Part shown: in pieces, positions 49,036 to 64,000 of the stretch | Layout: every line of letters begins with the position of its first letter | Numbering within the stretch: the first letter of the stretch is position 1 | Source: Candidatus Levyibacteriota bacterium | GTDB taxonomy: Bacteria; Patescibacteriota; Microgenomatia; Levybacterales; UBA12049 | Length of the DNA: 64,000 bases | Direction: 5' to 3' | Assembly (NCBI GenBank): GCA_003173895.1 | Contig: PJMG01000006.1 | Coordinates: 2,820-66,819, forward strand | Translations under genes and position numbers: made by a program | The notes under the pieces: model-generated | What the model was told of the DNA's origin: nothing | Database searches by the model: none | Seen by the model: only the letters and a program-made list of their open reading frames with translations

Positions 49036-49037
49036 TT

Positions 49038-49709
49038 ATGATTACTGTTAAAAATCTAAAAAAAACATATCCTGGGAAAGTTCCTACTCCTGCTTTAAAA
49101 GGACTTAGTTTTATCGTCCAGAGTGGAGAGTTTATTGCTTTAACCGGACGAAGTGGATCAGGCAAATCTACTCTACTTCATCAATTAGGCTTACTAGATA
49201 ATCCTACAGAAGGCAACATAATGATTGATCAAACTGACGTATTAGCACTTTCTGATACTAAAAAAACTTTTTATAGACTTACATCTTTAGGTTATGTTTT
49301 CCAGGAATATGCGTTAGTTGCTGAATTTACGGCGTTAGAAAATGTTTTACTGCCTGCTATGGCTTTAGGAAATCATAATGACCAAAAAGAAAGAGCTAAA
49401 GAACTTTTATCTCTAGTGGGCTTGGAAGAAAGATTAAATTATTATCCTAATGAACTTTCAGGTGGTCAACAGCAGCGTGTGGCTATAGCACGAGCGTTAA
49501 TCAATCATCCTAAAATTCTTTTTGCTGATGAACCAACTGCTAATTTAGATACAGCCTCTTCTAAAACAGTTCTGGACATTTTCTTAAAATTAAATAAAGA
49601 AGAAAAACTCACTATTATTATGGTCACTCATGAACCAGACTATGCTAAATTAGCTCAACGAAATATAGAGCTTCTAGATGGACTGATTATTAAGGATAAA
49701 AAGCAATAA
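49038..49709 (+). CDS. ABC transporter ATP-binding protein (MacB/LolD-type)
   Basis: Walker A GRSGSGKST, signature LSGGQQQRVAIARAL, Walker B ILFADEPT. Confidence 0.85.
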   Translation: MITVKNLKKTYPGKVPTPALKGLSFIVQSGEFIALTGRSGSGKSTLLHQLGLLDNPTEGNIMIDQTDVLALSDTKKTFYRLTSLGYVFQEYALVAEFTALENVLLPAMALGNHNDQKERAKELLSLVGLEERLNYYPNELSGGQQQRVAIARALINHPKILFADEPTANLDTASSKTVLDIFLKLNKEEKLTIIMVTHEPDYAKLAQRNIELLDGLIIKDKKQ

Positions 49710-49764: not shown

Positions 49765-50490
49765 ATGAATAAAACAGAAGCCTTAAGTTATCAATTGTAT
49801 CTGGAACTACCCTATGATCCTACCGGAGAAAGCTATAGATTAGATCAACCTCAAACTGATGGGAGCGAAAATTTAGAGGTAAGAGATCAAGCAGTAGAAT
49901 TCGCCATGATGGAAAAACTTTTAGAACAAACTGCTGATGAAAATGTGAATTGGAAAAATATACTAGCTTCTTTAGATAATGAAAATAGGACTAATCAGCC
50001 TAGTTTATTTAGTCCGGATATACTTACTGCTACACTTAATTTATCTACTTTTAACAAAGTTCAATTTTCTGAAAGTTTCGGCTATCAAGGAAAAAAGCAT
50101 AATTATTCTCGATATGGAAATATGAATACTATCCCAGCTGGAAAGCAAATTCTTAACATGTCACTTCAGCCTTTTTCTGAAGATGTAATTTTACTTCACA
50201 CTATAGTAGGTTTACCAGAAACTAAAGAAAAGAATACTACTTTTAGAAATATCGAATTTACTTATATTCGCTCGAAAAGTACTAACCAACCACTCTATGT
50301 TTCATTGAAAGAACGAAGATCACAAAAACCAGCAGCTTCGATAGAAGATGAACCAACTTTTAATTTCACATTTATATTTCATCCTGAAGAGAATCCTAAA
50401 AATACTTTTCTGGAAATGTCTATAAGTGGAACTCAGAGACCCACACCTTTTCATGGATCATTTTACAACACGAGAAAAAGACTTTCATAA
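49765..50490 (+). CDS. hypothetical protein (ORFan island)
   Basis: 241 aa, no motif I recognise. Confidence 0.35.
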   Translation: MNKTEALSYQLYLELPYDPTGESYRLDQPQTDGSENLEVRDQAVEFAMMEKLLEQTADENVNWKNILASLDNENRTNQPSLFSPDILTATLNLSTFNKVQFSESFGYQGKKHNYSRYGNMNTIPAGKQILNMSLQPFSEDVILLHTIVGLPETKEKNTTFRNIEFTYIRSKSTNQPLYVSLKERRSQKPAASIEDEPTFNFTFIFHPEENPKNTFLEMSISGTQRPTPFHGSFYNTRKRLS

Positions 50491-50531
50491 TTGACAATTT
50501 TAAAATAGATGATTATCATGTTAATGATAAT

Positions 50532-51203
50532 ATGCCACGCAGCGAACTTATATGGCAAGAAGTTAAAGATCGTTTAAATCCTCGTATTATTCATACTAAA
50601 AATCCTGAACAATTTGCTCAAAAAATTGCTAAACATAGTTCTCGTAGAGAATTCATTCCCGAGCTAATAATTATAGAATCTAGTGTAAATCCTTTAACTG
50701 AAGGATTTCAAATGGAAACATATAGAGGCAATAAAACTATTCGCTACAGAGAAAATCCTCCACGTAGAAAAAAAGCTGAAGTAATTCCTCATAATTTATG
50801 TGAACCAACTAGACAAGCTAGTCAAGCTGCGAGAAGAGCTAGAGAAGAGAATTTATTACCGTCTATTTATCAAATAGCCACTTCTGCTAATGCTATAGCC
50901 AGTTTTTTAGATGAGACGGCGGGAGTAAGTAGTAATCTTGGATCTTGGGTAAGTGAAAATAGAATTGCTATTTTAAAAGCATTAAATACAGCTGTTAAAA
51001 GAGAAGATTCTGTTAGAGCAGCTATTAAAAATGAGTTTATTAAAAAAGGTGATCCTGAACCAGGAATTATGGTTCATTATTCACCAGGTTTTGGAGATTT
51101 AATAACACGCCGTATACATGGAGACAGAGAACAAGTATTACAAGTGCTTAATAAAAGCAACAATCCAGCAGCTATAGCTCCCTGGCCATCTAGTGGTAAA
51201 TAG
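50532..51203 (+). CDS. hypothetical protein (ORFan island)
   Basis: 223 aa, Arg-rich centre. Confidence 0.35.
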   Translation: MPRSELIWQEVKDRLNPRIIHTKNPEQFAQKIAKHSSRREFIPELIIIESSVNPLTEGFQMETYRGNKTIRYRENPPRRKKAEVIPHNLCEPTRQASQAARRAREENLLPSIYQIATSANAIASFLDETAGVSSNLGSWVSENRIAILKALNTAVKREDSVRAAIKNEFIKKGDPEPGIMVHYSPGFGDLITRRIHGDREQVLQVLNKSNNPAAIAPWPSSGK

Positions 51204-51211
51204 TAAGAAAA

Positions 51212-51964
51212 TTAAATAGGATCTTTACTCAATGCTTGTACTGCTAACGGATATAATTGTTTATAGATTTTGGCTCCCGCTTTTGCACCTTTTGCTATAA
51301 AAGGCCCTATGTGATATGACATAATCGTAGGAAGTATATCACCTTCAGCCAACCCATCTAGAGAAGCTAAAATAGTTTCTAAAGAGATTTGGAGTAATTG
51401 GTCTCCGGTAGGATCTTGAAGAAGTGAACTTCTGGCTAATTTTCTCTCGTTAAGTAATGTAGTTTTATTTGCCGCATCTTCTAGTAATCCTAATCGTGTT
51501 CGCCTGCGAAAACTTTCGGGAGATTTGGCTGTTTTTAGTTTTGCTTGTTCACTACCTAATAAAATACCATGAAGGACATTTTCTAAACCATATGAAAAGT
51601 CATACCAAAAAATAAAACCTATCTGAGAATTATCTTTATTAAATTGATTGGATATAGATTCCATGGGTAAGGAGATATTTTCTAGTATTGCCTCAGCAGT
51701 CAATTGAGGGGCTGTAGGTAGTATAGTCTTATACAATAAGCTTTTTTCTTTAAAATAACGTATTATTTTATTCTTATTTCTATAAATAGAATGAGTTATC
51801 TCTTGTATTAATGGCTCTCCCATTTCCTGTGTAAAATCCTGTATAGTAGATAAATTAGGATCTATTAATTGCCCTAAAGATGAACGTTCAGCAACTATGT
51901 CGCTTCTTTCACTCGTTGTAAGAGGAGACCAGAGATCTCCTAGACCGAATAGTTTTTCTGCCAT
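51212..51964 (-). CDS. hypothetical protein (ORFan island)
   Basis: 250 aa. Confidence 0.35.
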   Translation of the reverse strand: MAEKLFGLGDLWSPLTTSERSDIVAERSSLGQLIDPNLSTIQDFTQEMGEPLIQEITHSIYRNKNKIIRYFKEKSLLYKTILPTAPQLTAEAILENISLPMESISNQFNKDNSQIGFIFWYDFSYGLENVLHGILLGSEQAKLKTAKSPESFRRRTRLGLLEDAANKTTLLNERKLARSSLLQDPTGDQLLQISLETILASLDGLAEGDILPTIMSYHIGPFIAKGAKAGAKIYKQLYPLAVQALSKDPI

Positions 51965-52032
51965 AACCTGAGATCACTTTAGCATATATTCTAGAATTGT
52001 CAATCTTAATTGGAGCTTACAGCCAGGCAAAT

Positions 52033-53664
52033 CTAATCTTTTGGAGGATCTAATCTTCTAGTAATATCATTAATTAGTCTTTCTACTACATATTCAGGAA
52101 CTCTGTCTTCTTCTGCTAAAGTTTGACAGTGACCCCATACTGTTAAATCAACTCCATCTATAAGTCCAGATAAATGTTCATTCTCATGGAAAGCTGTTGG
52201 TTGATTTACATTGTAATCATATTCTTCTCTTAATCTTTTAGCTAATTCTTGAACTTGCTTACTACTTAGATTAACTCCAATACTTGCTGCTCTTAATAAA
52301 GATACAAATTGTTGTACTTCTTTAGAATATCTTTGATCAGTTAAAAAAACTTTTAATCTTTGTGTATTTTGTGCTGAATAAGCAGTATTTTCACCTTTAT
52401 TATTAAGACCATCTAATCTAGCTGGTTGAATATTTAAATTCATACCATCAATATAGTTTAAAGCTACTAAATATACTTTTTCTCGTATTCCGTGCCACCC
52501 TACTCTAAATCTCTCAGTTGAAGCTACAAAAACTCCTTTTTCAGGATCAATAGAATAATTTCCTGTTATTCCTCTAGATACCATTTCTCTAGCTGTACTC
52601 TGCAATTTTGTTTTAGTGTCTATATCCAATTGATCAAAAAGAGTCATATTACCATCGATTATCACAGGAATTCCTCTTTTTAAATGAGCAGCTGTAGTGG
52701 CTTTTCCGATATTTGCTATTTGAGAATCATCAAATGTACAAGTAGCATAGTCATCGATTCTTAAACGACCCTCAGTAATCATAGTATAAATATCAGCTGC
52801 AAGCATTGTATCTGTAACCGCTGGTGCCATAGGTGTATTAAGATTAACTACTCTATACACATCTGTTAAATTTTCAGGTACAGAAGGTGGAATTTTAGTC
52901 AGCTCTAGATATTGTTTACTTGTTCCAACTGATACAATTCGAGCTTTAAAAGGTAAACCTAAAGCATTAACCATTTTTACATAATCATTGTACATTCTAA
53001 TAAAATATTTTAGTCTATCTGAAGTACTTACTCCTCGTCCAGGATCTTCAAAAATAAGAATTTGTCCCCCTTCAGGCAAAACATTAGACATAGCATGGAA
53101 AGCTCTACTATATAAATCTAAAAATGTGGTTCCTGAGGAAACTAAAATAGGATCTGAACTATCCCTTTTATCCATATGTCTTAATATATTACGCAAAAGA
53201 AGTATATCAGGAGTTCCAGCACCTCTTTGTTCAGCTTCATGTCTTATGATATCACTATCTAGCATTTCTACTACACCTACTGTAGCTCGTGAAGAATGAT
53301 TATTAGGTTCTAGATAAGGATTGATTCCAAAAAATGTATCTCTATTAAAGAATGGCATACTTGCCAGCTTATCTAAATGAGCTCCTGTTCTACCACAACC
53401 TATATCCCAAACTGTTAAGTGTATATCAGTAGCACCTAATACATGTTTAAGATCAAAATCTTCAATATAATTCTCTGCAGTAGGAACAAATAATCTTTCT
53501 ATTGGACCACCAATTACACTAATTTCTATATCAGTAAGCCTGGTTAATAAACTTTGATAAGCCTCACTATCACTAAATGCAGCTAGTATCCTTTGTTGAG
53601 GAGTAGGTGTATTTTCGCCTGGATTAACAGGCATTTGGTTTGGATTATTTAGTAATTCTCCCAT
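52033..53664 (-). CDS. hypothetical protein with an N-terminal class-I SAM-methyltransferase-like fold (ORFan island)
   Basis: VWDIGCGRTGAHL (motif I-like), VGVVE (post-I acidic), DILLLRNIL, EGGQILIFE; tentative. Confidence 0.4.
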   Translation of the reverse strand: MGELLNNPNQMPVNPGENTPTPQQRILAAFSDSEAYQSLLTRLTDIEISVIGGPIERLFVPTAENYIEDFDLKHVLGATDIHLTVWDIGCGRTGAHLDKLASMPFFNRDTFFGINPYLEPNNHSSRATVGVVEMLDSDIIRHEAEQRGAGTPDILLLRNILRHMDKRDSSDPILVSSGTTFLDLYSRAFHAMSNVLPEGGQILIFEDPGRGVSTSDRLKYFIRMYNDYVKMVNALGLPFKARIVSVGTSKQYLELTKIPPSVPENLTDVYRVVNLNTPMAPAVTDTMLAADIYTMITEGRLRIDDYATCTFDDSQIANIGKATTAAHLKRGIPVIIDGNMTLFDQLDIDTKTKLQSTAREMVSRGITGNYSIDPEKGVFVASTERFRVGWHGIREKVYLVALNYIDGMNLNIQPARLDGLNNKGENTAYSAQNTQRLKVFLTDQRYSKEVQQFVSLLRAASIGVNLSSKQVQELAKRLREEYDYNVNQPTAFHENEHLSGLIDGVDLTVWGHCQTLAEEDRVPEYVVERLINDITRRLDPPKD

Positions 53665-53914
53665 AATATTTTGCCTTAAAGCCGTATGCGAATATTATCC
53701 TATATTACGACTAAATTAACCCATATTATATAATAATGTCTAAAAAATGTCAACACTATGCGACAGCTCTCTTATTCTAGAAAAGAGTGAATTTTCTAAT
53801 TTTTACAGTACAATATAGCACTGGTGGAAAGAAGTTTTTTACTTTAAAATTTGAGATTTTTATTTTTTTTAAACGGGTTGCGAAGTGGAAACTAATCTTA
53901 AAATATGTCCTATA

Positions 53915-54301
53915 TTATTGACCGGGCTCCTTTTCTAACGCCTCTACTATGAGTTGTCTTAACTCTTCTTTATCCAAAGTTCTTGAATAGTCCCCTATTT
54001 CAACTTTCCATGTAGTTTCATCTACTCTAGTTACACCTGTAGGTTCTGTAGGTAAATAACTCCATCCAGGATTTTCAGTAAATTCAGTAAATAATTTAGC
54101 TATTTCTGGATTAATGGCTAAACTTATAACTGTACTACCCACTTTAGCATCAAGTGCTTGCATTAAAAGACTTAAACTAATATTTTTACCCTCTCCAACT
54201 GGAATTAAAACAGGTCTTTGTGAATCTATTGAAATATCATTTAGCCAATCTGGTAACTTACCTGCCCTAATTAATGGGTGTTCATTTTCATTAGCTGACA
54301 T
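53915..54301 (-). CDS. hypothetical protein (ORFan island)
   Basis: 128 aa. Confidence 0.35.
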   Translation of the reverse strand: MSANENEHPLIRAGKLPDWLNDISIDSQRPVLIPVGEGKNISLSLLMQALDAKVGSTVISLAINPEIAKLFTEFTENPGWSYLPTEPTGVTRVDETTWKVEIGDYSRTLDKEELRQLIVEALEKEPGQ

Positions 54302-54373
54302 ATGGATATTTTAGCAAAATTAAATTTTGTTTTCTATTAAAGTATATATTCTCAGTTAATTTTATTACTCGCG

Positions 54374-54898
54374 CTAAGATTCTAATTCAATAAGTCCTTT
54401 GTCGCTATCAATTTTAACCATATTTAAGAGAGTTGTTGCGTCTTCAAGTCTTTGTCTTGCTTTTTCTAATTCTGTTTCTGCTGATGTAACTCCTGTTTTA
54501 GCAGAATCCATTTCGTATTCAGCTTCTTTTACGACTGCTACAATATTTTCTCTTGCAAGACGCTTAAACAATTTATCGGCGTAGGGAAATTTTAATTCTA
54601 ATAATCTAGTGAGGAATAAAGTTTCTTCAACTGTTGCACGTCTATTTATTAATGGAGATAAATCAAACGAATTTCCTCCTTGAGCTTCTGATTGAATCAG
54701 AAAAACTCCTTTAATTTCGCCGTCTCCATATCTAGGAGACGCAAAAAGATTTAGATTCACTGGTTGTGATAAGTATGAAATACCTGGAATTTGATACGTA
54801 ACGTTAAATTGTTCAGCTCCAGGAGTTCCTAAAATGCGCAATTTTTCCGCTTCTGTTTGGAAATCTTGATTTGGTAGTGAATATTTTTCTATTGACAT
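54374..54898 (-). CDS. hypothetical protein with a C-terminal coiled coil (ORFan island)
   Basis: 174 aa. Confidence 0.35.
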   Translation of the reverse strand: MSIEKYSLPNQDFQTEAEKLRILGTPGAEQFNVTYQIPGISYLSQPVNLNLFASPRYGDGEIKGVFLIQSEAQGGNSFDLSPLINRRATVEETLFLTRLLELKFPYADKLFKRLARENIVAVVKEAEYEMDSAKTGVTSAETELEKARQRLEDATTLLNMVKIDSDKGLIELES

Positions 54899-54995
54899 AA
54901 CTTATTGACTATACTATATCTTGTAATTGTATTCAAGTTCCTAGACATATTAATTAGTGTAACCATTAATAACTTCATTTCAATGATTTACTGAA

Positions 54996-55583
54996 TTACG
55001 AACCTTTGCTTAAAGCTAGGAGTACCAATGGCCCTGATGGCTCTTTGGTATTATCACTAGTTTCCCCTTTTGCGAACGTGCTATATACTTGACCTACCAT
55101 AGGTTGAGTATCTCCAGATGCTTGAATTAAACTTGGATCTTTAGAAATCATTTGTCCTACTACATTCATACCCCACCAACTATCATTTAAAGCCTCTTGT
55201 CCAGGCATTAATACTTGTTTTTGCACATCATATATTAAAGCATTAGAATTCCCATTTAGTGAATAAACGTTTACTATTAAATCTCTCTCATCTCTACCTG
55301 ACTGACGAGAGGTAATAGGATAATTTCTAGCTACTCTAATTTTTATACCCTGATTAACTAATTTCAGATTATGTAAATCAACCTCTTCTATTCTACCTAC
55401 TTCACCAGCCAGATTTTCTGGTGTGGGAATAAAATGACTATGATTTGCTTCTGAACAAGCTGTAAGCAGCATATCTGCTAACATGGGTAGTCCTAGAGTT
55501 ACTGCAGTACCCCATTTTAAAAATCCTCTTCTATCCATGGTTCTTTTAGGTGTAATTTGCTTTTCTGCTTCTGAATTTAACAT
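54996..55583 (-). CDS. Tat-signal lipoprotein-like hypothetical protein (ORFan island)
   Basis: Twin-arginine motif DRRGFLKWG, a hydrophobic h-region and an LLTAC lipobox-like site; GAGGAG SD 9 nt upstream. Confidence 0.45.
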   Translation of the reverse strand: MLNSEAEKQITPKRTMDRRGFLKWGTAVTLGLPMLADMLLTACSEANHSHFIPTPENLAGEVGRIEEVDLHNLKLVNQGIKIRVARNYPITSRQSGRDERDLIVNVYSLNGNSNALIYDVQKQVLMPGQEALNDSWWGMNVVGQMISKDPSLIQASGDTQPMVGQVYSTFAKGETSDNTKEPSGPLVLLALSKGS

Positions 55584-55586
55584 GCT

Positions 55587-56531
55587 TTATATTTCTCCTC
55601 TCTCTGCTCTTAATTGAGCCTGATCTCTATTAGCTATAACGTGATGTGTTATTATTTCTGGTTGATCAACATATCCTAATATTCCTCTATCTGCTACCAA
55701 ATCATATTTCTCTTTCACAGTGGAAAGTTTTGATAAGGCTACAGCTGCTGTTCTGGCAGAATCAATAATTATTTTTGCTACTGTTTCACCAGTACACCAT
55801 ACTTCATATTGTCTTTCTTTTCCTATTTTCTCTGGATGACTTGCTCCAAATCTAGTATGACGAATAAGATCATTATTGTTATAAGTGTGAACATTTTCTG
55901 TATTAAGATCCCCGTAGATGGCGTTAATAAGGAATTTAACAGAACTATTTATAGCTAATCCTATACCATCTTCTCCTGCAATAGTGAAGATTGCTACCAT
56001 TGCTGGTGTCCAAGTTGGATAATATTCTCCAAAGTCGTTAAAAAGATCATCAACTGCAGCTAATATTGCCTCACCATAATGTACTTCTCCTCCTTGAGAT
56101 AATAATTCTAAAAAGTGTTTTTCAATTCGTTGGTTTAGTGCAGTTACAGGTTTTTTTATAGTACCAAGCTCACTTTGATAGCTAACTTCCCCTTTAGCTA
56201 AATCAGCTAAATATCCCATAGCTACTTCTGCATATTCAGCCTGCTCTGGATTTCAGGTCATTTCTACATGATAGTGAGGTGAATATTTTATAGGTAAATT
56301 TAGTTGATCAGTTTGAGCGGTAAGTTGAGGATGCATATCTCGGTAATACCCTCCTCTATATTCTGTACCATCTATTTTATTAAATATACTTACATCTTTA
56401 AAAATATCATTTACTTGAGAAAAGGTAGGATTACCTAATTTACCACGGAGAATTTCTTTTCGTCCACGAGGTCCCTGATTTGGTTCTACTGACATGCGCA
56501 ATATAATAACACCTATTATTTCAAAATGCAA
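55587..56531 (-). pseudogene. gene interrupted by a single in-frame TGA (92-aa and 210-aa ORFs in the same frame); pseudogene, sequencing error or stop-codon readthrough
   Basis: The ORFs 56253-56531 and 55587-56219 share one frame. They are separated only by the TGA at 56253-56255 followed by 11 sense codons (NPEQAEYAEVA) before the downstream Met. Confidence 0.45.
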
Positions 56532-56642
56532 ATTATAGGATTAGGTTTATTTCACAGGATAAGTTTTAGCAAAGTTATACACCATTTTTTGTGAATGTTT
56601 ATCCCAATCTCCAGAAAAGGATGAGTGATTATGTTTAATTCG

Positions 56643-57515
56643 CTATTTTCTGATTGATCTAACCAGAGGATATCTTTCAGCGACTTGTGGAAGACTATAG
56701 GTTTTTGCTCGTAATGCTCTTATAAATTCTGGACCCCAAGGTGTTAATTCTCCAAGCCTAGTATCTTCATTATTTAAAACATTCTCTGAAAGAAATTTAG
56801 TTAAAAAAATAGTTACAATATATATAACTAAAGGATTACTAACTACATCAGGTAGAGAAACATCTAAGGGGCTTATGGGATGAAAGTCGAAAGGTAAACC
56901 TGTGACACGAGATACTGCGAGAGCTGTAAAAAGTAAAACTCCAGCTAAATCTCCTTTATTAATAGTTGTTAGATGTTTTATTCCAAGATCAGTTATTCCC
57001 TCAATTAAAGCCTGATTTATAACAGAAGCTCTGACAGCAGTATTTCTAAGAGTCTCATCTTTTTTATGAGTTTCATCATTTATTCTCTGTTGAACCAAAG
57101 TTATTACACCATTACCCCAACGAGCTCCATGAGGAATTCTTCTCTCATTCATTGCTTCTAACTCTGCTCTACTTATAGGTTTCTCACCTGTAGCAACTGC
57201 TTCACCTGTACCAGCATTTCCTGCTAATCCACTAATTTGTATGCCAAAATTATTTCTCTGTACATTTGTATCAACACCTATTGTAATTTTCCCTAAACCA
57301 AAAGATCGACAAGCAGTTGCCATACGATCAAAATCAATTACTATTTCCTCTGACATTTCTTTTGGAGCAATATTCGTTAACCCTTCAATTTCAAATGTAA
57401 TGGTTTTTTTACCTGGATCTGAAATTGTAATATTTCCTGCTTCAGTTAGTTCTCTTAATGTAAGGGTTCTTTGTTCTCTTAATGGGCCATTTTGTTCAGG
57501 TGAGGAATTAGACAT
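56643..57515 (-). CDS. hypothetical protein (ORFan island)
   Basis: 290 aa. Confidence 0.35.
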   Translation of the reverse strand: MSNSSPEQNGPLREQRTLTLRELTEAGNITISDPGKKTITFEIEGLTNIAPKEMSEEIVIDFDRMATACRSFGLGKITIGVDTNVQRNNFGIQISGLAGNAGTGEAVATGEKPISRAELEAMNERRIPHGARWGNGVITLVQQRINDETHKKDETLRNTAVRASVINQALIEGITDLGIKHLTTINKGDLAGVLLFTALAVSRVTGLPFDFHPISPLDVSLPDVVSNPLVIYIVTIFLTKFLSENVLNNEDTRLGELTPWGPEFIRALRAKTYSLPQVAERYPLVRSIRK

Positions 57516-57706
57516 AGAGGAACTTTACCAAAAAATTTTGGACATGTCAATTATAGGACAGTTTCTCTAAAACATATAAGTGTTTTTTTAAATAAAACTC
57601 AGATAATTGCTCCAGGCCAAACGAGTCAGAAATATAACCTAAGTTACATAGTATTTATAATGCTGTAAAACAAGGTGATTTTAGTACTGCTTTAAAAGAA
57701 ATAATT

Positions 57707-59404
57707 TTATTCTTCCAAAGATGAGTGTACAGGATCTGCGAATAATTTTTGCAATAGTTTTAGTAAATCTGCGTCAATACCATTTGGTAGACGATTTGCA
57801 CGTTCTGCCATCGCAACTAAATTTGTTACTACATCAAATTCTTTATTAAAATGGATAGGATCCTTATATAGATCTCCATACCGTTCTGGGAAAACTATAC
57901 CCCCCATAATCATACCAAGTGTATGTATCCTTATTTGTATATGTCGATTGTATCCGTATTCATTATGATCATAAATTTTAAATATAGGAGACAGATTAGG
58001 TTGCTCTTTTTCTATTTCACTTGCTAATGATAAATAGTTATAGATAAATAGCGATTTTAACTGATTTAATGTGTCTGCATCTTTAGATCTCCTTCCTGCA
58101 AAGGTGGGCGCTTTTCTTTTATTCTCTATTTCATCTAATCCAATAAGATGAGGCATCTTATGTCTTCCTTTGATCACAGAATCTAAACTTTTTAACCCAT
58201 ATGCTATATTATTCAACTCTTCTGCTGGAGTAGCGTTAGTATTTATTGATGCATTAGCTTTTATATACTCATTTACTCTTTTTACACTTTCATCATCTGG
58301 TAAACTTTCTAATGTGTCATTTCCAGGAGTAAAAGCACGCGCTATATCTCTTACTGTCATTAATAAGTAATGAGGAGTTCCACCCATAGGAAATGTAATA
58401 TATACAGAATTAATAGAGGGCATGTTTATGTCTCTTGGTAACATTTGCATCATTTTTTCTAGCCTGGGAGATGTACGTACCATAATATTTATACCCATAC
58501 GTTCTCTATCACGAAGAGAAAGAACCAGAACATCGTGAGCAATAGCAATAACTTCTTCTTCACTAGTGTATCCATATGGACGCTTTATTTCATTTTCTTG
58601 TAAGCTTTTTAATACATTTTCTGCTGATTTTGTCTTTTGCCATAATTTTTCTCGCGATGCTTTAGCTTTCCTTATACTTTGATCTATAGCAGCTTTAGCA
58701 TATGCGGTATCCGGAGTGTATGAAACTCTATCGTCTTCTCTTTGCCCATGAAAAGTTGCCAGACTTTGTGCATAAGTAAACCATTCTGAAAGAGCTTCAT
58801 TATTCATAGAGGATATATGGGTTTTGGCATAACGATAAATTGCTCTTTGTATATAAGGGTTAATTTTTCTTTCATCCATTTCATCTATATTCACATTATA
58901 GATATCCACAGTTTCCTGATTTATATCTTTGAGTATACTTGTTAAAACAATAGGTTTTGGTTCTTCCTGTCCTACCGGTCCTTTTTCAGAAAACGAAATG
59001 GCTACACAATTACCATAAGTAGGAATTTCTGTTATTACAATATTAAGACCCAAATGAGGAAGCATTTTCTCCAATGCCTCTTGAGTAGTTATATTACTAT
59101 TCTTTGCATAAGCATCAGCATATGAGTTAACTGTGTTAAAAACATTTTGTACAAACTTATTTTTTTCCTCTTCTATATTATCCCCTTCTGAAGGAGATAA
59201 GGTAGGTAAACCATCTAAGATACGTGCAATATGTATAAATTGGTATCCAATACGACGTAAAGAAGTAATAGTTTCTCCTTGTATTAAATTCTTTTCTCTA
59301 CTTAGATTATTTAGATAAGTAATTACACCACTTGTACCATCAATTCCTTCTAATCTTCTATCAATATTTGTTAATACTTGTTTTACTTGTCTGTTTTCAG
59401 TCAT
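57707..59404 (-). CDS. hypothetical protein, 565 aa (ORFan island)
   Basis: No motif I recognise; first gene of a nine-gene same-strand array. Confidence 0.35.
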   Translation of the reverse strand: MTENRQVKQVLTNIDRRLEGIDGTSGVITYLNNLSREKNLIQGETITSLRRIGYQFIHIARILDGLPTLSPSEGDNIEEEKNKFVQNVFNTVNSYADAYAKNSNITTQEALEKMLPHLGLNIVITEIPTYGNCVAISFSEKGPVGQEEPKPIVLTSILKDINQETVDIYNVNIDEMDERKINPYIQRAIYRYAKTHISSMNNEALSEWFTYAQSLATFHGQREDDRVSYTPDTAYAKAAIDQSIRKAKASREKLWQKTKSAENVLKSLQENEIKRPYGYTSEEEVIAIAHDVLVLSLRDRERMGINIMVRTSPRLEKMMQMLPRDINMPSINSVYITFPMGGTPHYLLMTVRDIARAFTPGNDTLESLPDDESVKRVNEYIKANASINTNATPAEELNNIAYGLKSLDSVIKGRHKMPHLIGLDEIENKRKAPTFAGRRSKDADTLNQLKSLFIYNYLSLASEIEKEQPNLSPIFKIYDHNEYGYNRHIQIRIHTLGMIMGGIVFPERYGDLYKDPIHFNKEFDVVTNLVAMAERANRLPNGIDADLLKLLQKLFADPVHSSLEE

Positions 59405-59538
59405 AACTATTTTTTGAGAGTATACTGTAGTTAATAATAATTATCAACTATTAATAATATAGGTGGTTTAAATTTGGTGAATCTATTTAGATTTATAGTT
59501 TGCGTCAATTAATGTAGCGGGAAATTTAAATTATAAAT

Positions 59539-59886
59539 TTATACTTTAACTCTTATAAAATAGAACTCACTGGCTTCATTTCCATTAGCTTCTATCTTAT
59601 GCATAGAATTGGCATGTACGATAATAACATCATCCTTTTTATATTCTATTTGCTCTTCTTCGCAGAAATAATTACCTGTGCCTTTTATAACTATACATAC
59701 TTCATCCATATTTTCATGTTTATGCCAATCCCAAACTTGTCCAGGTTTTAAAAAACCTTTAGTAATGGCTTCCAGATTCTCTGTAGTCAGATGATGAGGG
59801 TAGACTAATGTTTTTCTGGAATTTGGCACATCATGAATGGCCTCAAAAGGTATATCATCTATATTAAGTTTTAAGAATTTCTTCAT
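59539..59886 (-). CDS. cupin-domain protein
   Basis: WHKHENMDEVCIVIKGTG...VIIVHANSMHKIEA is a two-motif cupin pattern. Confidence 0.6.
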   Translation of the reverse strand: MKKFLKLNIDDIPFEAIHDVPNSRKTLVYPHHLTTENLEAITKGFLKPGQVWDWHKHENMDEVCIVIKGTGNYFCEEEQIEYKKDDVIIVHANSMHKIEANGNEASEFYFIRVKV

Positions 59887-59934
59887 TAAATAAAGTATAG
59901 CAAAATTTATGAGGATTTATTTTTACTTAAGATA

Positions 59935-60327
59935 TTAATTACGTCGTTCTCCTTCAACTGATTGAAGTATACTTATTTTACCTCCTCTACGTATTCTTAC
60001 CCAATACCAATCAGGATTTCTTCGTACTCCTTCTCCTCCACCTTCGGGATAGTCAAAATACTCCACGCTATACTTAGTGCGTTCAGAGCCTAAGAAGTTC
60101 AGAAAGGGTTTACCTGTTCCACGTCTTCTAACTTCCATACGACTCTTATGATATCCATATCTTTCACCACCACTAAAAAAATCCATTATAGCCTTACCAC
60201 TATTAACATCAACCTTAATGTGATTATATGGGTGTCTATCAGGATCACGTACATCTCCTGTTTCAAATGTTATATCCCATGGTTGTCCCATTTCAAGAAG
60301 AACCATTAATAACTCTGGATTTGGCAT
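59935..60327 (-). CDS. hypothetical protein (Arg/Gly-rich)
   Basis: 130 aa. Confidence 0.35.
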   Translation of the reverse strand: MPNPELLMVLLEMGQPWDITFETGDVRDPDRHPYNHIKVDVNSGKAIMDFFSGGERYGYHKSRMEVRRRGTGKPFLNFLGSERTKYSVEYFDYPEGGGEGVRRNPDWYWVRIRRGGKISILQSVEGERRN

Positions 60328-60667
60328 AAAGAGAATTTTACTAAATAGTTATTTAAAAAACAAGAAGAATTAAAAAAATTCCTATCACATTAAAGAGGAA
60401 ATATGATACAGTAGAAATGCTAAAAGTTATAAGTAAAGTAAAATGAATGGTGTTGAAGTAACTGCTATTATTACAATTATTGCTTTCTCGATTAGAGGAA
60501 TGATTTCATTAGTAGTTATTATTTGGGGAGGGAAAAAAGTGAAAAAATATTTTGATAAGAAAAATAGTATAGTAGAAAACCATAATCAAGATAAATTATA
60601 AAAAGAATGCCCCACAGGCTGTTGGTTATATCCTCAATCTTATCTACTGTACAATAATTATTAGCGT

Positions 60668-60967
60668 ATGCTAAGATTTTTATGGATGGCAAATGTACCA
60701 GAAACCGATAAATGTCCCGGTTTAGATTATTCTCCAATACAACCAGTTATTATTGATATTGCATTTGGCGATGGACGAATAAATAGAATTTTTTGGGGGA
60801 AAGTAGGACAACTGCTAGGAATTAATAAAAGAAGATTTCCAAAAGGACAATGTGGAGCTGGTCGATTGGGCAATGAAATGATAACTTCAAACAATCCAAA
60901 TGGTTCAATTCTACGAGCAGATTGTGCTAGTTGCAGTAGAAGAACTGAAGTAAGAAGAATTCAATAA
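60668..60967 (+). CDS. hypothetical small Cys-containing protein
   Basis: 99 aa; weak. Confidence 0.25.
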   Translation: MLRFLWMANVPETDKCPGLDYSPIQPVIIDIAFGDGRINRIFWGKVGQLLGINKRRFPKGQCGAGRLGNEMITSNNPNGSILRADCASCSRRTEVRRIQ

Positions 60968-60994
60968 TTTTTAAAAAGTAAATTTTGAGAATTA

Positions 60995-61696
60995 TTAATG
61001 GGAGATTTTTTTACTATAGTCTTCAGCAATTCTACTAATCTCTTCTATGTGTCTATTTATTAAGTTTTGCATAGTTCTTCTATCTATTACTGTTAATAAA
61101 TTTTGCGCATCACCTGCTATAGCACCTACAAACCTTTCCGCTACTTCTTTTAATAATGGCAGTTGTCTTAAAAGTCTTTCTCTCTCTTCTGAATCAATAC
61201 CTTTATCATTTTTTATGATCTCCGGTAATGCTTCCTCAAATCGCCTGGAAGCGGAACGAATAAAATGACTACCAAGCCCTTCGATTAAACCTACAGCTAT
61301 ATCCGAAGTGGTTCTAACTCGTCTATCACCTGAAACAGGAGGAACAGGAACTACTGCAGTGGACTGATTTTCTGAAGTCTCTGATGACGGTAGCGGTATC
61401 TGATTAGTAATATGATGTAATAAGGGTTCATTAACTTGACGGCCTAATTCAGCAGCTGTAAGTGATTGAAGTAATTGAACTTCACGTCCAGTAGTTAATC
61501 CCAATAAAGTAGGCATATGATATGCATCCAGAAGAACACCTGCAGGTTGGTATGCTAACTGTGCAGCCATCTCAATCCCTCTAAGTTCTGCGTCTGATAT
61601 AGTTCCTTTTATAGTAGTAATAGTATCTTCAACCCTTCTAACTGTTCCTTGTACTCTTTCTGTTAAATTTTTACCTAATTTTCTAAGATCTTCCAT
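60995..61696 (-). CDS. hypothetical protein (ORFan island)
   Basis: 233 aa. Confidence 0.35.
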   Translation of the reverse strand: MEDLRKLGKNLTERVQGTVRRVEDTITTIKGTISDAELRGIEMAAQLAYQPAGVLLDAYHMPTLLGLTTGREVQLLQSLTAAELGRQVNEPLLHHITNQIPLPSSETSENQSTAVVPVPPVSGDRRVRTTSDIAVGLIEGLGSHFIRSASRRFEEALPEIIKNDKGIDSEERERLLRQLPLLKEVAERFVGAIAGDAQNLLTVIDRRTMQNLINRHIEEISRIAEDYSKKISH

Positions 61697-61754
61697 ATAT
61701 TCTAGAACGAAATGTACACCTCCAAAGTACTCTTGTCAATAGCTTGGTTAAAAT

Positions 61755-61783
61755 TTGACAACTACGATTTTATGTCCTATAAT
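61755..61783 (+). promoter_or_regulatory. consensus sigma-70 promoter, leaderless-type, for the 61792 gene
   Basis: TTGACA (61755-61760), 17 bp, TATAAT (61778-61783); the ATG at 61792 is 8 nt downstream. The -10 sits in a GTCCTATAAT context shared with the motifs at 57541 and 63853. Confidence 0.45.
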
Positions 61784-61791
61784 TCTGCCCT

Positions 61792-62418
61792 ATGAGTGAA
61801 TCTTTTAACCCCCATGCAGCTTATGAAAAATGGCGTCAATCTCTACCCGATTATTCTGTAGGCTTAAGAGGTCAAAGTTCCCAATTCAACGAGACTATTC
61901 TAGAACATGGTTTTGATAAACGCAGATGGTATTTTGCTATTAATCTTTCTGAACTAGATTGGGATGGGATGAGAGAAATTAGAGGAGAACTTCATGACTG
62001 GTTTGACTATTTAGTACGCTTTGGAAAAGAAGCTAGTACTAATAAATCAAGAGAAATTACTTTGGATACTCCAGAACAATGTTTAACTTATTTCAGTCAA
62101 CATCCTCAAGAGTATATATCACTTTTGTTATTAAAATTTCCTGGAATTAGAGGATGGTATCATTCACATAATATAATTAGAGTGAGCTTAGGCGGTGAAG
62201 AACAACAAACATTTCAACATAAACTCTCTCGTAACTTTATAGTTAAAGATCTTTATTTAAACCAATCAGACTTTGAAAGAGTGCGAGAGGAATTAGTTAA
62301 AAGAGGGTTAGATCTTAATGATCCGAAATATAAAGATATTATGACCAATAAACTTTCTCGTTTAATGTTAAGAAAAGTGTTAAGTGAAATAACACATCTT
62401 GAGAGTTCTGAGAGATAA
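61792..62418 (+). CDS. hypothetical protein (ORFan island)
   Basis: 208 aa. Confidence 0.35.
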   Translation: MSESFNPHAAYEKWRQSLPDYSVGLRGQSSQFNETILEHGFDKRRWYFAINLSELDWDGMREIRGELHDWFDYLVRFGKEASTNKSREITLDTPEQCLTYFSQHPQEYISLLLLKFPGIRGWYHSHNIIRVSLGGEEQQTFQHKLSRNFIVKDLYLNQSDFERVREELVKRGLDLNDPKYKDIMTNKLSRLMLRKVLSEITHLESSER

Positions 62419-62426
62419 AACAAAGC

Positions 62427-63044
62427 TTAATTAACTCCGTTTTTACCTTCTTTTATCATTATTATTGCGTAAGGTTGATCTTTAATTAAGTTTAATAATT
62501 CTGGATTTTCATAAAAATGAGCGCTACCCGCCTGTAAAATAAGTTTTCTTCTTAAATATCTATATCTGAATTTTCGTAAAGTATCTTTTATAGTAGCATT
62601 GAGTGAATCATTTCGTTGTAGTGCTTTTAAATTCGATTCTTTTTGTTTTTCCAAAGCTATATTTGTTAGATGTAACCTTTCTTGCATTGAAATTCCGAGC
62701 TCTTCTGATGCTGTAGTTGCTGCATTGGATTCTTCTTGTAAAGCGTCAGATTCATCGTATTTTTTTATATCATCCCACCCTATCGTTTTAGTCCCAAATT
62801 TTACTCCAAATTCTCTTCTACTTAATCTCCATGGATATCTTCTTCCTTTTTCGCGCCCTTCAATAGCTAGTAAATGTCCTAAACCAGTATGTTCTTTTAT
62901 TATTCTATTTTCATTTTGAACTGAGTCTGCGTCTTCATGATTAAGTCCAATACAAATAACTCGGGCTTTTTTAAGCGGAACGTTAGCTGAATAAATAGTA
63001 TATGCTTCTTGATTCATAGAGAAAATTTTATCATAGGATTGCAA
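62427..63044 (-). CDS. hypothetical protein (ORFan island)
   Basis: 205 aa; overlaps the upstream gene by 14 bp. Confidence 0.35.
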   Translation of the reverse strand: MQSYDKIFSMNQEAYTIYSANVPLKKARVICIGLNHEDADSVQNENRIIKEHTGLGHLLAIEGREKGRRYPWRLSRREFGVKFGTKTIGWDDIKKYDESDALQEESNAATTASEELGISMQERLHLTNIALEKQKESNLKALQRNDSLNATIKDTLRKFRYRYLRRKLILQAGSAHFYENPELLNLIKDQPYAIIMIKEGKNGVN

Positions 63045-63825
63045 TTGGATTACCTTCTAGATCCACAGGTAGTAAACCTTTTTTAATAAGCAGTTGAGCG
63101 GCAAATCTAAAGCGAGGTTGTAACAATTCGTATAAATATAAAGGAACTACGATAACTTCACAAGATTTTCCATTTGTAAATGTTAATGTATATTTGACAC
63201 TATTGGCTATACTATATTCTCCACGCCTTACCTGTGGTTTAGAAGTATAATTGAGTTTTTGATTTTCCACAGCCATTACTGGAAAGATATAGTAAGGATC
63301 TTCTGGAAAATGGCGTTCTTTGTCAGCTAAATCATATATAAAAGTAGTTAATCTGTTAAAAGGTCCTTTAGATTCACAGGTATACAATTCTGCTCGTTGC
63401 ACATTTTGTATACCTACATGCTTAGACACATGCTTAAAATATGCTTTATGCCAACCTCTTCTTTCTACTAAAAATGCTGTATTAGCCAGATCATGTCTTT
63501 GCCTAGAAGTAAAAGTACCGTTGAGATATGTTTGAACAGTTTCTTCATGAATTTGTTTTTCTTCGTCAGTAAGCTGAGTTAAAATCGCAGCTTCATGAAA
63601 TCCTGGAGCTTTAACATTACATATGGTTCTTATTCCTATATGATTCCCACTTAAATAATATAAGTCTTGTGTATCAGTTTGTATAGGATTATACTCTCTC
63701 TTTCTTCTCATCCCTAGTCGTAGCAGAGTTTCCCCCATAACATTAACTTCTCCTGATTTTGTTTTGAAAGGAGGACGCACATTACCTGATTCCTGATTTC
63801 TAATGAGAAATTCTACTAGTGGCAT
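63031..63825 (-). CDS. hypothetical protein (ORFan island)
   Basis: 264 aa. Confidence 0.35.
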   Translation of the reverse strand: MPLVEFLIRNQESGNVRPPFKTKSGEVNVMGETLLRLGMRRKREYNPIQTDTQDLYYLSGNHIGIRTICNVKAPGFHEAAILTQLTDEEKQIHEETVQTYLNGTFTSRQRHDLANTAFLVERRGWHKAYFKHVSKHVGIQNVQRAELYTCESKGPFNRLTTFIYDLADKERHFPEDPYYIFPVMAVENQKLNYTSKPQVRRGEYSIANSVKYTLTFTNGKSCEVIVVPLYLYELLQPRFRFAAQLLIKKGLLPVDLEGNPIAIL

Positions 63826-63898
63826 GCAATGATTTTAGGCTATCAATTCAAGATTGTCAATTATAGGACTATTTTTGAATTAAGTAATGTTTGTACTT

Positions 63899-64000
63899 AT
63901 AAATCTTGTCTCCGCTTGGTAAAAGAGTCATATTCTGCCATAAGTTCTCTTACTCTCCTAGCACTATCTTGTATTTTATAATTTTCTCCCTCTATACTAT
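63899..64000 (-). CDS. partial hypothetical protein (C-terminal fragment; gene starts beyond the window end)
   Basis: A reverse-strand frame (...SIEGENYKIQDSARRVRELMAEYDSFTKRRQDL*) ends at 63899. Confidence 0.25.

What the first reader, a model, noticed from the sequence alone, without database searches (positions are those of the whole stretch)
49765..63900. 14-kb island of ORFans including a nine-gene same-strand array: candidate undescribed system
From 49.7 kb to the window end, none of the roughly 18 ORFs matches a family I can recognise except one cupin. By contrast, nearly every ORF in the preceding 34 kb does. Genes 57707-59404 down to 51212-51964 form a tight minus-strand array with gaps of 3-190 bp. 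The array includes a Tat-signal lipoprotein-like protein, a 543-aa protein with an N-terminal methyltransferase-like fold, a 565-aa protein, and one member split by an in-frame TGA. The proteins look compositionally different from the rest of the window: more Arg, Glu and Gly, and less Lys, Asn and Ile. That suggests horizontal origin. Candidate functions are an effector or secretion-associated cluster, a defence system, or a biosynthetic or modification module. I cannot assign a function from sequence alone.
Basis: partly seen in the sequence, partly recalled or inferred. Interest (0 to 1): 0.7.

Follow-up and report, generated by a model that had tools for sequence, protein, structure and literature searches.

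The report
Orphan-gene block in a CPR bacterium
A 14-kb stretch of real but almost family-less genes in a poorly sampled, low-GC candidate-phyla-radiation bacterium looks like a patchwork of separately transcribed accessory genes, not one machine; only one protein (a methyltransferase fused to a rare helical domain also found in a phage virion protein) gives any functional lead.

Summary
The core observation holds. From 49.7 kb to the window end, 18-19 ORFs have a clear coding signature. Only a cupin matches any family in Pfam, PHROGs or PADLOC, against 21 of 25 ORFs in the preceding 34 kb (p = 2e-7). The "system" reading is not supported.

- **Expression:** the genes use the genome's own codon usage, GC3 and leaderless promoters. 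Most have a private promoter, giving about 12-13 transcription units, not a nine-gene operon.
- **Homologues:** an exhaustive HMMER search with the two largest proteins found 13 remote relatives among 1.84 billion representatives. None of their loci carries a second island gene.
- **Relatives' contexts:** the helical domain recurs in a multidomain phage protein between portal and head-morphogenesis genes, and in Glyoxalase-X-MazG cassettes. A methyltransferase-domain relative lies near a VirD4-like ATPase.
- **Composition:** the shift is only Lys to Arg, with His and GC2 raised. That fits old acquisition from higher-GC donors.

Most likely this is a heterogeneous accessory block drawn from the mobile or conflict gene pool. 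No close relative genome exists, so presence/absence could not be tested. Interest is modest.

The parts
49765..50490 (+). ORFan, 241 aa, soluble
   Evidence: ORF. No Pfam, PHROG, PADLOC or NCBIfam hit. Singleton in the 15-billion-protein collection.
50532..51203 (+). ORFan, 223 aa, basic and Arg-rich. Its own 11/12 promoter lies at 50491-50519.
51212..51964 (-). ORFan, 250 aa. Own promoter TTGACA-16-TAAAGT (TG-extended), ending 11 nt before the ATG.
52036..52902 (-). C-terminal all-helical domain (residues ~255-543) of the 543-aa protein. It belongs to a rare family with the motifs N..PMAPAVTD and ITRRxDQP.
52915..53470 (-). N-terminal class I SAM-methyltransferase-like domain (residues ~66-250) of the 543-aa protein (whole gene 52033-53664). 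Motif I is VWDIGCGRTG; the later motif is LPEGGQILIFED.
53725..53753 (-). Perfect-consensus promoter (TTGACA-17-TATAAT) about 60 nt upstream of the 543-aa start. This is the one island gene with a clear 5' leader.
53915..54301 (-). ORFan, 128 aa, acidic. Own TG-extended -10 element ending 6 nt before the ATG.
54374..54898 (-). ORFan, 174 aa, with a helical (coiled-coil-like) C-terminus. The identical sequence appears in an independent Logan assembly of SRR490139.
54996..55583 (-). Putative Tat-exported lipoprotein, 195 aa (DRRGFLK...LLTAC). It is 3 nt downstream of the preceding gene and has the island's clearest Shine-Dalgarno-like GGAG.
   Evidence: Pfam TAT_signal E 0.0037, 17.6 bits, below the gathering score of 22.7. 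Gap and SD-like element. Lipobox by inspection.
55587..56219 (-). ORFan, 210 aa, with no promoter of its own. It is in frame with the upstream 80-aa ORF across a single TGA and an 11-codon spacer.
56253..56495 (-). Small ORF. Its likely start is the ATG at 56495 (80 aa, MSVEPNQ...), preceded by the promoter at 56503-56532. It ends in TGA. Together with the next two genes it probably forms one three-gene transcription unit, or a 302-aa gene interrupted by TGA followed by the lipoprotein gene.
56643..57515 (-). ORFan, 290 aa, with two C-terminal hydrophobic segments. It is the only membrane-anchored candidate in the island. Own promoter ends 6 nt before the ATG.
57707..59404 (-). ORFan, 565 aa. 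It has only two remote relatives: P0010 (551 aa, 25% identity, E 1e-8) and P0013 (E 5e-5).
59539..59886 (-). Cupin_2 protein, 115 aa. This is the only island ORF that passes a Pfam threshold.
   Evidence: E 1.7e-11, 44.1 bits, above the gathering score of 27.2
59935..60327 (-). ORFan, 130 aa, very Arg-rich
60668..60967 (+). ORFan, 99 aa, lying in the 667-bp 'gap'. It has a coding signature (GC1 0.45, GC3 0.14) and is in the collection from the NCBI contig.
60995..61696 (-). ORFan, 233 aa. Own 10/12 promoter.
61792..62418 (+). ORFan, 208 aa. A perfect 12/12 promoter at 61755-61783 ends 8 nt before the ATG (leaderless).
62427..63044 (-). ORFan, about 196-205 aa. The start is uncertain, because the TTG-start version is not in the collection. 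It overlaps or abuts the upstream gene, so the two are probably co-transcribed.
63031..63825 (-). ORFan, 264 aa. An 11/12 promoter at 63832-63860 ends 6 nt before the ATG.

Best explanation
The region is a heterogeneous block of accessory genes restricted to this lineage, in a low-GC bacterium of the Patescibacteria/CPR type. It is not one multi-gene machine.

The genes are real and are expressed with the host's own signals. There are about 12-13 separate, mostly leaderless transcription units. Each is driven by a sigma70-type promoter placed right against the start codon. The exceptions are a three-gene unit (80 aa, 210 aa, Tat lipoprotein) and a two-gene unit at the right end.

The proteins most likely entered the lineage long ago from higher-GC donors in the mobile-element or conflict gene pool. 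This is inferred, not shown. Synonymous sites have since equilibrated, but the Arg-for-Lys preference and the raised GC2 remain.

Only one component can be analysed, the 543-aa protein. It is predicted to bind SAM and methylate a substrate, probably a small molecule or RNA and probably not DNA. Its C-terminal helical domain, which has no close structural match, would act as a specificity or second-function module. Judging from where its relatives sit, this protein probably works in protection or counter-defence and not in housekeeping.
For: - **Real, native genes.** GC1 > GC2 >> GC3. GC3 (0.179 vs 0.187, p = 0.6) and synonymous codon usage match the rest of the window.
- **Independent assembly.** A separate Logan assembly reproduces two of the genes exactly.
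- **Separate promoters.** Promoters scoring at least 10/12, with the -10 ending 5-15 nt before the start codon, occur at 31% of genes against 0.7% of control ATGs. The island (37%) matches the rest of the window (28%). Strong individual promoters precede 50532, 51964, 53664, 57515, 59404, 61696, 61792 and 63825.
- **Orphan status.** No hit in Pfam, PHROGs or PADLOC except the cupin; NCBIfam, run on ten ORFs, gave only one noise-level hit (hycI, E 0.042). The exhaustive HMMER search gave only 13 non-self hits for the 543-aa and 565-aa proteins.
- **Old foreign imprint.** Arg 6.4 vs 3.4%, Lys 5.5 vs 9.0%, GC2 0.365 vs 0.322.
- **Contexts of its relatives.**
  - P0004 lies between the portal and head-morphogenesis genes of a phage contig.
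  - P0006 and P0009 sit in Glyoxalase-X-MazG cassettes. P0006 is near APH(6), Mrr, AAA_15 and a serine recombinase.
  - The methyltransferase-domain relative P0015 lies in an ORFan-rich stretch, one gene away from a VirD4/TraG-like ATPase.
- **No co-occurrence.** None of these loci contains a second island gene.
Against: - Sensitive searches were possible for only 2 of the roughly 18 proteins. The concatenated word-index search of 13 others failed even to recover the query proteins themselves, so it says nothing.
- No close relative genome exists. Sigma70, FtsX and the ABC ATPase are also singletons at 90% identity. Loci that share the ABC operon have 40-48% GC and no flank synteny. Accessory status therefore could not be tested by presence/absence.
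- There are no mobile-element hallmarks: no integrase, no tRNA and no flanking repeats.
- Same-strand clustering, and co-regulation through the very similar promoters, could still reflect a functional unit.
- The Lys to Arg shift could be functional, not historical.
- The island's right boundary lies beyond the window.
Confidence: 0.45

Rival explanations
1. These are native, vertically inherited genes specific to the lineage (for example for an episymbiotic lifestyle). They look orphan only because the lineage is essentially unsampled and evolves fast. No horizontal transfer is involved.
For: Codon usage, GC3 and promoter architecture are fully native. There is no integrase, tRNA or flanking repeat. 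Even housekeeping proteins of this genome have no relative at 90% identity. Some upstream ORFs also lack Pfam hits.
Against: Upstream genes, although equally unsampled at 90% identity, still fall into universal families (21 of 25), while the island genes do not (p = 2e-7). The Lys to Arg and GC2 shift sets the block apart from other soluble proteins of the same genome. The few relatives found lie in phage, resistance-island and VirD4-adjacent contexts in unrelated, higher-GC contigs.
Confidence: 0.2
2. This is a decayed or highly divergent integrated mobile element, either a prophage of a CPR-specific virus or an integrative element. Its structural and integration genes are too divergent for current profiles.
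For: The C-terminal domain of the 543-aa protein recurs inside a multidomain phage protein encoded between the portal and head-morphogenesis genes. Most genes run on one strand, including several small ones. The amino-acid composition differs from the rest of the window.
Against: No PHROG hit for any island ORF except the cupin; no terminase, portal, capsid or integrase was detected. tblastn of most island proteins (15 of ~18-19 ORFs, in two concatenated queries) against 50,697 phage genomes found nothing, nor did tblastn of six of them against 72,556 plasmids. IMG/VR scans found nothing. The 565-aa protein is unrelated to the L021 portal by hhalign. Per-gene host-type promoters and native codon usage are atypical of a recent prophage.
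Confidence: 0.15
3. One reading: the minus-strand array (59404 to 51212) is one coherent, undescribed system for defence, effector delivery or modification. The methyltransferase-fusion protein would be its enzyme, and the Tat lipoprotein and the 2-TM protein its envelope components.
For: The genes cluster tightly on one strand. The set mixes an enzyme, a membrane protein and an exported lipoprotein. Promoters are similar and could allow co-regulation. Relatives of the 543-aa domains lie in conflict-type neighbourhoods.
Against: Nearly every gene has its own promoter, and gaps reach 250 bp. There is no PADLOC hit. Seven of the eight loci recovered for homologues of the 543-aa or 565-aa proteins are short, and none carries another island gene. 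The promoter motif is genome-wide, not specific to the island.
Confidence: 0.12

Closest known systems
Class I (Rossmann-fold) SAM-dependent methyltransferases of the Methyltransf_11/12/25 type, which act on small molecules or rRNA
   Different: The window protein reaches no Pfam or NCBIfam methyltransferase model, even at E 0.1. The usual acidic residue after strand 2 is replaced by a conserved G-[IV]-[NS]-P (alignment A4). The domain is fused to a 290-residue helical domain of unknown function. Substrate and activity are untested.
Polyvalent proteins of phages and conjugative elements (Iyer et al. 2017, PMC5512222, found; the description of this class is from my own knowledge of that paper)
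   Same: The C-terminal domain of the 543-aa protein is homologous (E 2e-20) to the middle domain of P0004. P0004 is an 815-aa multidomain protein encoded between the portal and head-morphogenesis genes of a phage contig. Its domains are joined by His/Gly-rich linkers and it ends in a DUF7178 region. Like polyvalent proteins, the window protein combines an enzymatic domain with a second module.
   Different: The window gene has only two domains. It lies in a chromosomal context with no detectable phage or conjugation genes and carries a host-type promoter. This domain is not found in any deposited phage genome or in IMG/VR.
Glyoxalase-X-MazG cassettes in variable regions of cellular genomes (seen here in L018 and L024/L025; as far as I know this is not a named system)
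   Same: X in these cassettes is a stand-alone homologue of the 543-aa C-terminal domain (P0009, P0006).
   Different: In the window the domain is fused to a methyltransferase and is not next to a glyoxalase or MazG gene. Glyoxalase-like genes lie about 9 kb upstream, at 42546-43366.
Genomic islands, or flexible-genome regions of hypothetical genes, in bacterial genomes and especially in CPR genomes (general knowledge)
   Same: A contiguous block of genes without assignable families. Its amino-acid composition deviates from the rest of the window, and it sits next to conserved transport genes.
   Different: It has no GC, GC3 or codon-usage anomaly and no integrase, tRNA or direct repeats. Presence/absence polymorphism is untested.

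Membership tests
Class I SAM-dependent methyltransferase (543-aa protein, N-terminal domain) | Rossmann-like alpha/beta fold with the class I strand order | tested here: met
Class I SAM-dependent methyltransferase (543-aa protein, N-terminal domain) | Glycine-rich motif I (E/DxGxGxG) after strand 1 | tested here: met
   The sequence is VWDIGCGRTGAH. The motif is partly conserved in relatives (P0005: WDIGAGPKG; P0014 and P0015 keep G-T-x-x-G), alignment A4.
Class I SAM-dependent methyltransferase (543-aa protein, N-terminal domain) | Scores above the curated threshold of a methyltransferase sequence family | tested here: not met
   No Pfam or NCBIfam hit at E <= 0.1. Only the relative P0015 reaches Methyltransf_12, at 26.2 bits, below the gathering score of 30.
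Class I SAM-dependent methyltransferase (543-aa protein, N-terminal domain) | SAM binding and methyl transfer | not testable with these tools
   This needs biochemistry.
Phage/conjugative-element polyvalent protein | Multidomain polypeptide (2-15 domains) combining conflict-related domains | tested here: inconclusive
   Two domains are present, a methyltransferase and a helical domain shared with the phage protein P0004. Whether either is a conflict effector is unknown.
Phage/conjugative-element polyvalent protein | Encoded in a phage or conjugative element, typically near head or portal genes or transfer genes | tested here: not met
   No phage or conjugation family appears anywhere in the island. 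The relative P0004 does meet this feature.
Prophage / integrated mobile element | Integrase or recombinase, attachment repeats, or a tRNA target | tested here: not met
   No tRNA in the window. No recombinase Pfam hit in the island. No significant flanking repeats. The right end lies outside the window.
Prophage / integrated mobile element | Terminase, portal, capsid and tail genes | tested here: not met
   PHROGs scans were negative. tblastn against phage genomes was negative. Very divergent structural genes cannot be excluded without structure models.
Known anti-phage defence systems (PADLOC-DB 2.0) | At least one signature protein matching a system model | tested here: not met
   No hit, apart from a 14-bit noise match to DpdH.
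Horizontally acquired genomic island | Nucleotide composition or codon usage deviating from the host | tested here: not met
   GC 0.34 vs 0.31, explained by GC1 and GC2. GC3 and synonymous codon use are the same as elsewhere in the window.
Horizontally acquired genomic island | Protein-level compositional deviation | tested here: met
   Arg higher, Lys lower, His higher and GC2 higher than in soluble upstream proteins.
Horizontally acquired genomic island | Absent from close relatives that keep the flanks | tested here: inconclusive
   Eleven CPR loci share the HlyD-FtsX-ABC operon, but none has island homologues. Their flanks are not syntenic on either side, and their GC is 40-48%.
Operon / single co-transcribed system | One promoter, short gaps, and no internal promoters | tested here: not met
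   At least 8 strong promoters sit directly before individual starts, and gaps reach 250 bp. Only 56495 to 54996 and 63825 to 62427 look polycistronic. There is no RNA-seq data.
Tat-dependent lipoprotein (54996-55583) | Twin-arginine motif S/T-R-R-x-F-L-K, a hydrophobic region, and a lipobox ending in Cys | tested here: inconclusive
   DRRGFLK, then WGTAVTLGLPMLADMLL, then the lipobox L-T-A-C, by inspection. Pfam TAT_signal scores 17.6 bits, below the gathering score of 22.7. Whether the genome encodes TatA/C and Lgt/Lsp could not be checked.
Cupin_2 (59539-59886) | Score above the Pfam gathering threshold | tested here: met
   44.1 bits against 27.2.

The most novel reading that the evidence does not exclude
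The minus-strand genes 59404 to 51212 would together form a previously undescribed CPR-specific conflict or host-interaction module. In this reading the methyltransferase-helical-domain protein modifies a nucleic acid or metabolite. Its helical domain would define a new family shared with phage virion-associated polyvalent proteins. The 2-TM protein and the Tat lipoprotein would be its envelope partners.
Probability: 0.1. Interest if true: 0.7.

Novelty: new member of a known kind. Interest (0 to 1): 0.3.

Why it matters
If the main reading is right, this is one more example of the large pool of function-less accessory genes in CPR genomes. It is useful mainly as a caution: same-strand ORFan clusters in genomes that use leaderless transcripts are not operons.

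The more interesting by-product is a rare helical domain family, about ten representatives among 1.84 billion cluster representatives. It links three settings: a CPR chromosomal methyltransferase fusion, a phage head-region polyvalent protein, and Glyoxalase-X-MazG cassettes. A confident model exists but no structural relative does, so it is a defined target for structural and biochemical work on phage-host conflict proteins.

Tried and rejected
**Exact and word-index look-ups**
- An exact-sequence contig look-up of the 565-aa protein found nothing. The NCBI contig is not indexed, so the remaining 12.7 kb of the contig could not be fetched.
- Word-index homology searches returned only the query itself for the 565-aa protein. 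For profile A1 they returned the query plus P0009.
- A 2751-aa concatenate of 13 island proteins returned nothing, not even the queries, although the ten that were looked up are in the collection. I treat that search as uninformative, not as a negative.

**Collection scans that came back empty**
- IMG/VR scans with A2, A3 and three single proteins were empty. A1 was too divergent to build patterns from.
- Both JGI metagenome scans were empty.
- tblastn against INPHARED phages and PLSDB plasmids was empty.

**Structure-related searches**
- PDB sequence searches with the 543-aa protein, A1, A2 and the concatenate found nothing significant.
- The afdb50 Foldseek library was unavailable. BFVD gave no match.
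- hhalign of the 565-aa family against the L021 portal and against P0004 showed no relation.

**Ideas considered and rejected**
- Paralogy within the window: none found.
- Alternative genetic code (TGA reassigned): rejected, because the other TGA stops are followed within 0-17 codons by TAA or TAG, and ORFs are long and dense under table 11.
- An island-specific regulatory motif (CCTATAATTGACA): rejected, because the extended ATTGACAA -35 element and the CCTATAAT -10 element occur window-wide.
- Non-coding RNAs in the island: none in Rfam at E <= 1.

Full report
**Source organism.** The window is 31% GC and encodes ordinary bacterial genes upstream: a sigma-70, Wzy, MFS, Nramp, GlnA, TrkH, a histidine kinase, PLD, an IS1595 transposase and a HlyD-FtsX-ABC exporter. 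The nearest relatives of the FtsX permease in 185,579 species genomes are almost all Patescibacteria/CPR MAGs, at 56-82% identity. They include Microgenomates, Gottesmanbacteria, Saccharibacteria and Paceibacterota, plus some obviously mislabelled MAGs. Only the three-gene ABC operon is shared with those loci. Their flanks are not syntenic, and their GC is 40-48%. Sigma-70, FtsX and the ABC ATPase of this genome are all singletons at 90% identity among 15 billion proteins. The lineage is therefore essentially unsampled, and that limits every comparative test below.

**Check of the observation.** The ORFs exist as listed and cover 89% of 49765-63825.
- They are real genes. Median GC1, GC2 and GC3 are 0.48, 0.37 and 0.18.
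- The 13 looked up are exact entries from the same 76.7-kb NCBI contig.
- Two are reproduced exactly in an independent Logan assembly of SRR490139.
- Pfam finds only the cupin (59539-59886) and a sub-threshold TAT signal.
- PHROGs and PADLOC find nothing for any other island ORF. NCBIfam, run on ten of them, gives only one noise-level hit (hycI, E 0.042).
- In the preceding 34 kb, 21 of 25 ORFs have Pfam hits against 1 of 18 in the island (Fisher p = 2.3e-7). The contrast is genuine.

- One gap in the array is 250 bp.
- A 99-aa plus-strand gene (60668-60967) sits in the 667-bp 'gap'.
- The small ORF at 56253-56531 most likely starts at the ATG at 56495, giving 80 aa.

**Composition.**
- Against soluble upstream proteins, Arg is doubled (6.4 vs 3.4%, p = 0.004), Lys is reduced (5.5 vs 9.0%, p = 3e-5) and His is raised.
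- Glu, Gly, Asn and Ile do not differ once membrane proteins are excluded.
- GC2 is higher (0.365 vs 0.322, p = 0.006).
- GC3 is identical (0.179 vs 0.187, p = 0.6), and synonymous codon choice matches codon for codon.
- There is no GC step, no tRNA, no recombinase and no meaningful flanking repeat.

If the genes are foreign, the transfer was old enough for silent sites to equilibrate completely.

**Transcription architecture.** Across the whole window, a sigma70-like promoter sits with its -10 hexamer ending only 6-14 nt before the ATG, and Shine-Dalgarno sequences are almost absent.
- Promoters scoring at least 10/12 in that position occur at 31% of genes against 0.7% of other ATGs.
- Island genes follow the same rule (37%).
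- Individual strong promoters lie in front of 50532, 51964, 54301, 57515, 59404, 60327, 61696, 61792 (12/12) and 63825 (11/12).
- A 12/12 promoter lies about 60 nt upstream of the 543-aa gene.
- Only 56495 to 54996 (80 aa, 210 aa, Tat lipoprotein, with a 3-nt gap and a GGAG before the last gene) and 63825 to 62427 look polycistronic.

The 'nine-gene array' is therefore mostly a row of monocistronic, leaderless genes. The shared promoter motif is genome-wide, not island-specific.

**The TGA-separated pair.** The 80-aa ORF ends in TGA and continues in the same frame through 11 codons into the 210-aa ORF. That ORF has neither a promoter nor a Shine-Dalgarno sequence of its own. Other TGA stops in the window are followed within 0-17 codons by TAA or TAG, so the code is standard. 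The arrangement could be a chance frame match (one in three), a recently split 302-aa gene, or read-through. It remains unresolved.

**Homologues.** One exhaustive HMMER search against 1.84 billion representatives was run with the 543-aa and 565-aa proteins concatenated. It gave only 13 non-self hits.
- The 565-aa protein has two relatives: P0010 (25% identity, E 1e-8) and P0013. Both lie on contigs under 3 kb, one of them next to an HD-domain gene.
- The 543-aa protein splits into two domains.
- Residues ~41-258 match three short proteins. One of them, P0015, hits Pfam Methyltransf_12 at 1.3e-5, below threshold.
- Residues ~255-543 match eight proteins of 145-815 aa that share the N..PMAPAVTD and ITRRxDQP motifs.

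**Structure of the 543-aa protein.** With a 12-sequence alignment, AF2 gives mean pLDDT 75.
- Modelled alone, the C-terminal domain is confident (pLDDT 87.9, pTM 0.86) and all-helical.

**Context of the relatives.**
- **Phage contig.** P0004 (815 aa) lies in a 57% GC contig downstream of terminase (phrog_38) and portal (phrog_10963) genes and upstream of a head-morphogenesis gene (phrog_1657). It is multidomain, with His/Gly-rich linkers and a DUF7178 region. This is the arrangement described for polyvalent proteins (PMC5512222; my knowledge of that paper).
- **Glyoxalase-X-MazG cassettes.** P0006 and P0009 are stand-alone copies flanked by a glyoxalase and a MazG gene. P0006 sits in a 210-kb cellular contig, in a variable stretch with APH(6), Mrr, an AAA_15 ATPase, an HTH protein and, in a second copy, a serine recombinase.
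- **VirD4 neighbourhood.** The methyltransferase-domain relative P0015 lies in an ORFan-rich stretch, one gene away from a VirD4/TraG-like ATPase, in a 760-kb contig.

None of these loci contains a homologue of any other island gene. The family is absent from deposited phage genomes, plasmids, IMG/VR and the JGI metagenome scan.

**Interpretation.** The evidence fits best a patchwork of accessory genes that are now fully domesticated in their expression signals.
- At least one gene traces to the phage, mobile-element or conflict gene pool.
- The block carries a residual higher-GC protein imprint.
- Nothing indicates that the genes cooperate.
- The one mechanistic statement I can make concerns the 543-aa protein: it should bind SAM and methylate something. 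That rests on fold and motif I only.
- It lacks the D/N-PP-Y/F motif of amino-methyltransferases that act on DNA, and it resembles small-molecule and rRNA enzymes. A non-DNA substrate is therefore more likely. This is inference.

I put 0.45 on this reading, 0.2 on purely native fast-evolving genes, 0.15 on a decayed or very divergent mobile element, and 0.12 on a coherent novel system.

**Limits.** Sensitive sequence searches and structure prediction were possible for two proteins only. The concatenated word-index search failed to return even the query proteins, so it is no evidence of absence. The right end of the island lies outside the window.

**Verdict.** This is a real ORFan block that is correctly located, but it is an ordinary kind of feature for a CPR genome. 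The case for a 'system' is not made. The rare helical domain family and the window-wide leaderless architecture are the most reusable observations.

Noticed in passing
whole window (e.g. starts at 9095, 14724(-), 23953(-), 26143(-), 38057, 43802(-), 44838, 45943, 61792, 63825(-)): Gene expression looks predominantly leaderless. A TTGACA-17-TATAAT-type promoter ends 6-14 nt before the ATG at 31% of genes (score at least 10/12) against 0.7% of control ATGs. Shine-Dalgarno motifs are almost absent: GGAGG occurs only before 42546-42956. Two literature searches found no paper describing this for CPR bacteria.
   Followed up: partly
window 5737-5806 (+): Rfam DUF3800-IX RNA motif (61.1 bits against a gathering score of 36.8). 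It lies immediately next to the 205-aa ORF at 5809-6426(-), which was not scanned.
   Followed up: no
window 55587-56495 (-): An 80-aa ORF and a 210-aa ORF are in the same frame, separated by one TGA and 11 sense codons. The downstream ORF has no promoter or Shine-Dalgarno sequence of its own. This could be a recently split 302-aa gene or read-through. All other TGA stops in the window are backed by a nearby TAA or TAG.
   Followed up: partly
L018 1401-3705; L024 9577-11249 (also L025): A recurrent Glyoxalase-(0-2 small ORFs)-helical-domain protein-MazG cassette occurs in unrelated 46-55% GC contigs. In L024/L025 it sits among APH(6), Mrr, AAA_15, HTH and serine-recombinase genes. I know of no named system with this arrangement.
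   Followed up: partly
L021 5209-7656: An 815-aa multidomain phage protein (P0004) lies between the portal and head-morphogenesis genes. His/Gly-rich linkers (GKHxQxxHGGRG...) separate an N-terminal domain shared with Gordonia phage hypothetical proteins, the helical domain studied here, and a DUF7178 region. A PI3_PI4_kinase-like gene follows two genes downstream.
   Followed up: partly
window 46542-49709 vs L001-L011: The HlyD-FtsX-ABC ATPase operon is 45-82% identical (per protein) to operons in CPR MAGs of 40-48% GC whose flanks share nothing with this window. That suggests the operon moves between CPR lineages as a unit.
   Followed up: partly
window 907-3153 (+): The sigma-70 factor is 748 aa long. 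All recognisable regions (1.2 to 4) lie in residues 487-736, which leaves an N-terminal extension of about 480 aa with no family match.
   Followed up: no
window 6684-14724: A second, smaller group of large ORFs has no Pfam hit: 6684-8234 (516 aa), 9756-12290 (844 aa) and 13228-14724 (498 aa). The latter two have one N-terminal hydrophobic segment each and high GC2, so they may be secreted or surface proteins.
   Followed up: no
window 36264-37136 (+): An IS1595-family (ISXO2-like DDE) transposase lies 13 kb upstream of the island. It is the only mobile-element gene detected in the window.
   Followed up: no
window 53725-53753 (-): The 543-aa gene is the one island gene whose promoter (perfect 12/12) is followed by a 5' leader of about 54 nt instead of a leaderless start. 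No Rfam family matches the leader.
   Followed up: partly
tool behaviour: the search for homologous proteins with a 2751-aa concatenated query returned no hits at all, although 10 of its 13 constituent proteins were confirmed by exact look-up to be in the collection (the other three were looked up later: two present, one absent). Long concatenated queries seem to defeat the word-index step, so that negative result should be ignored.
   Followed up: yes
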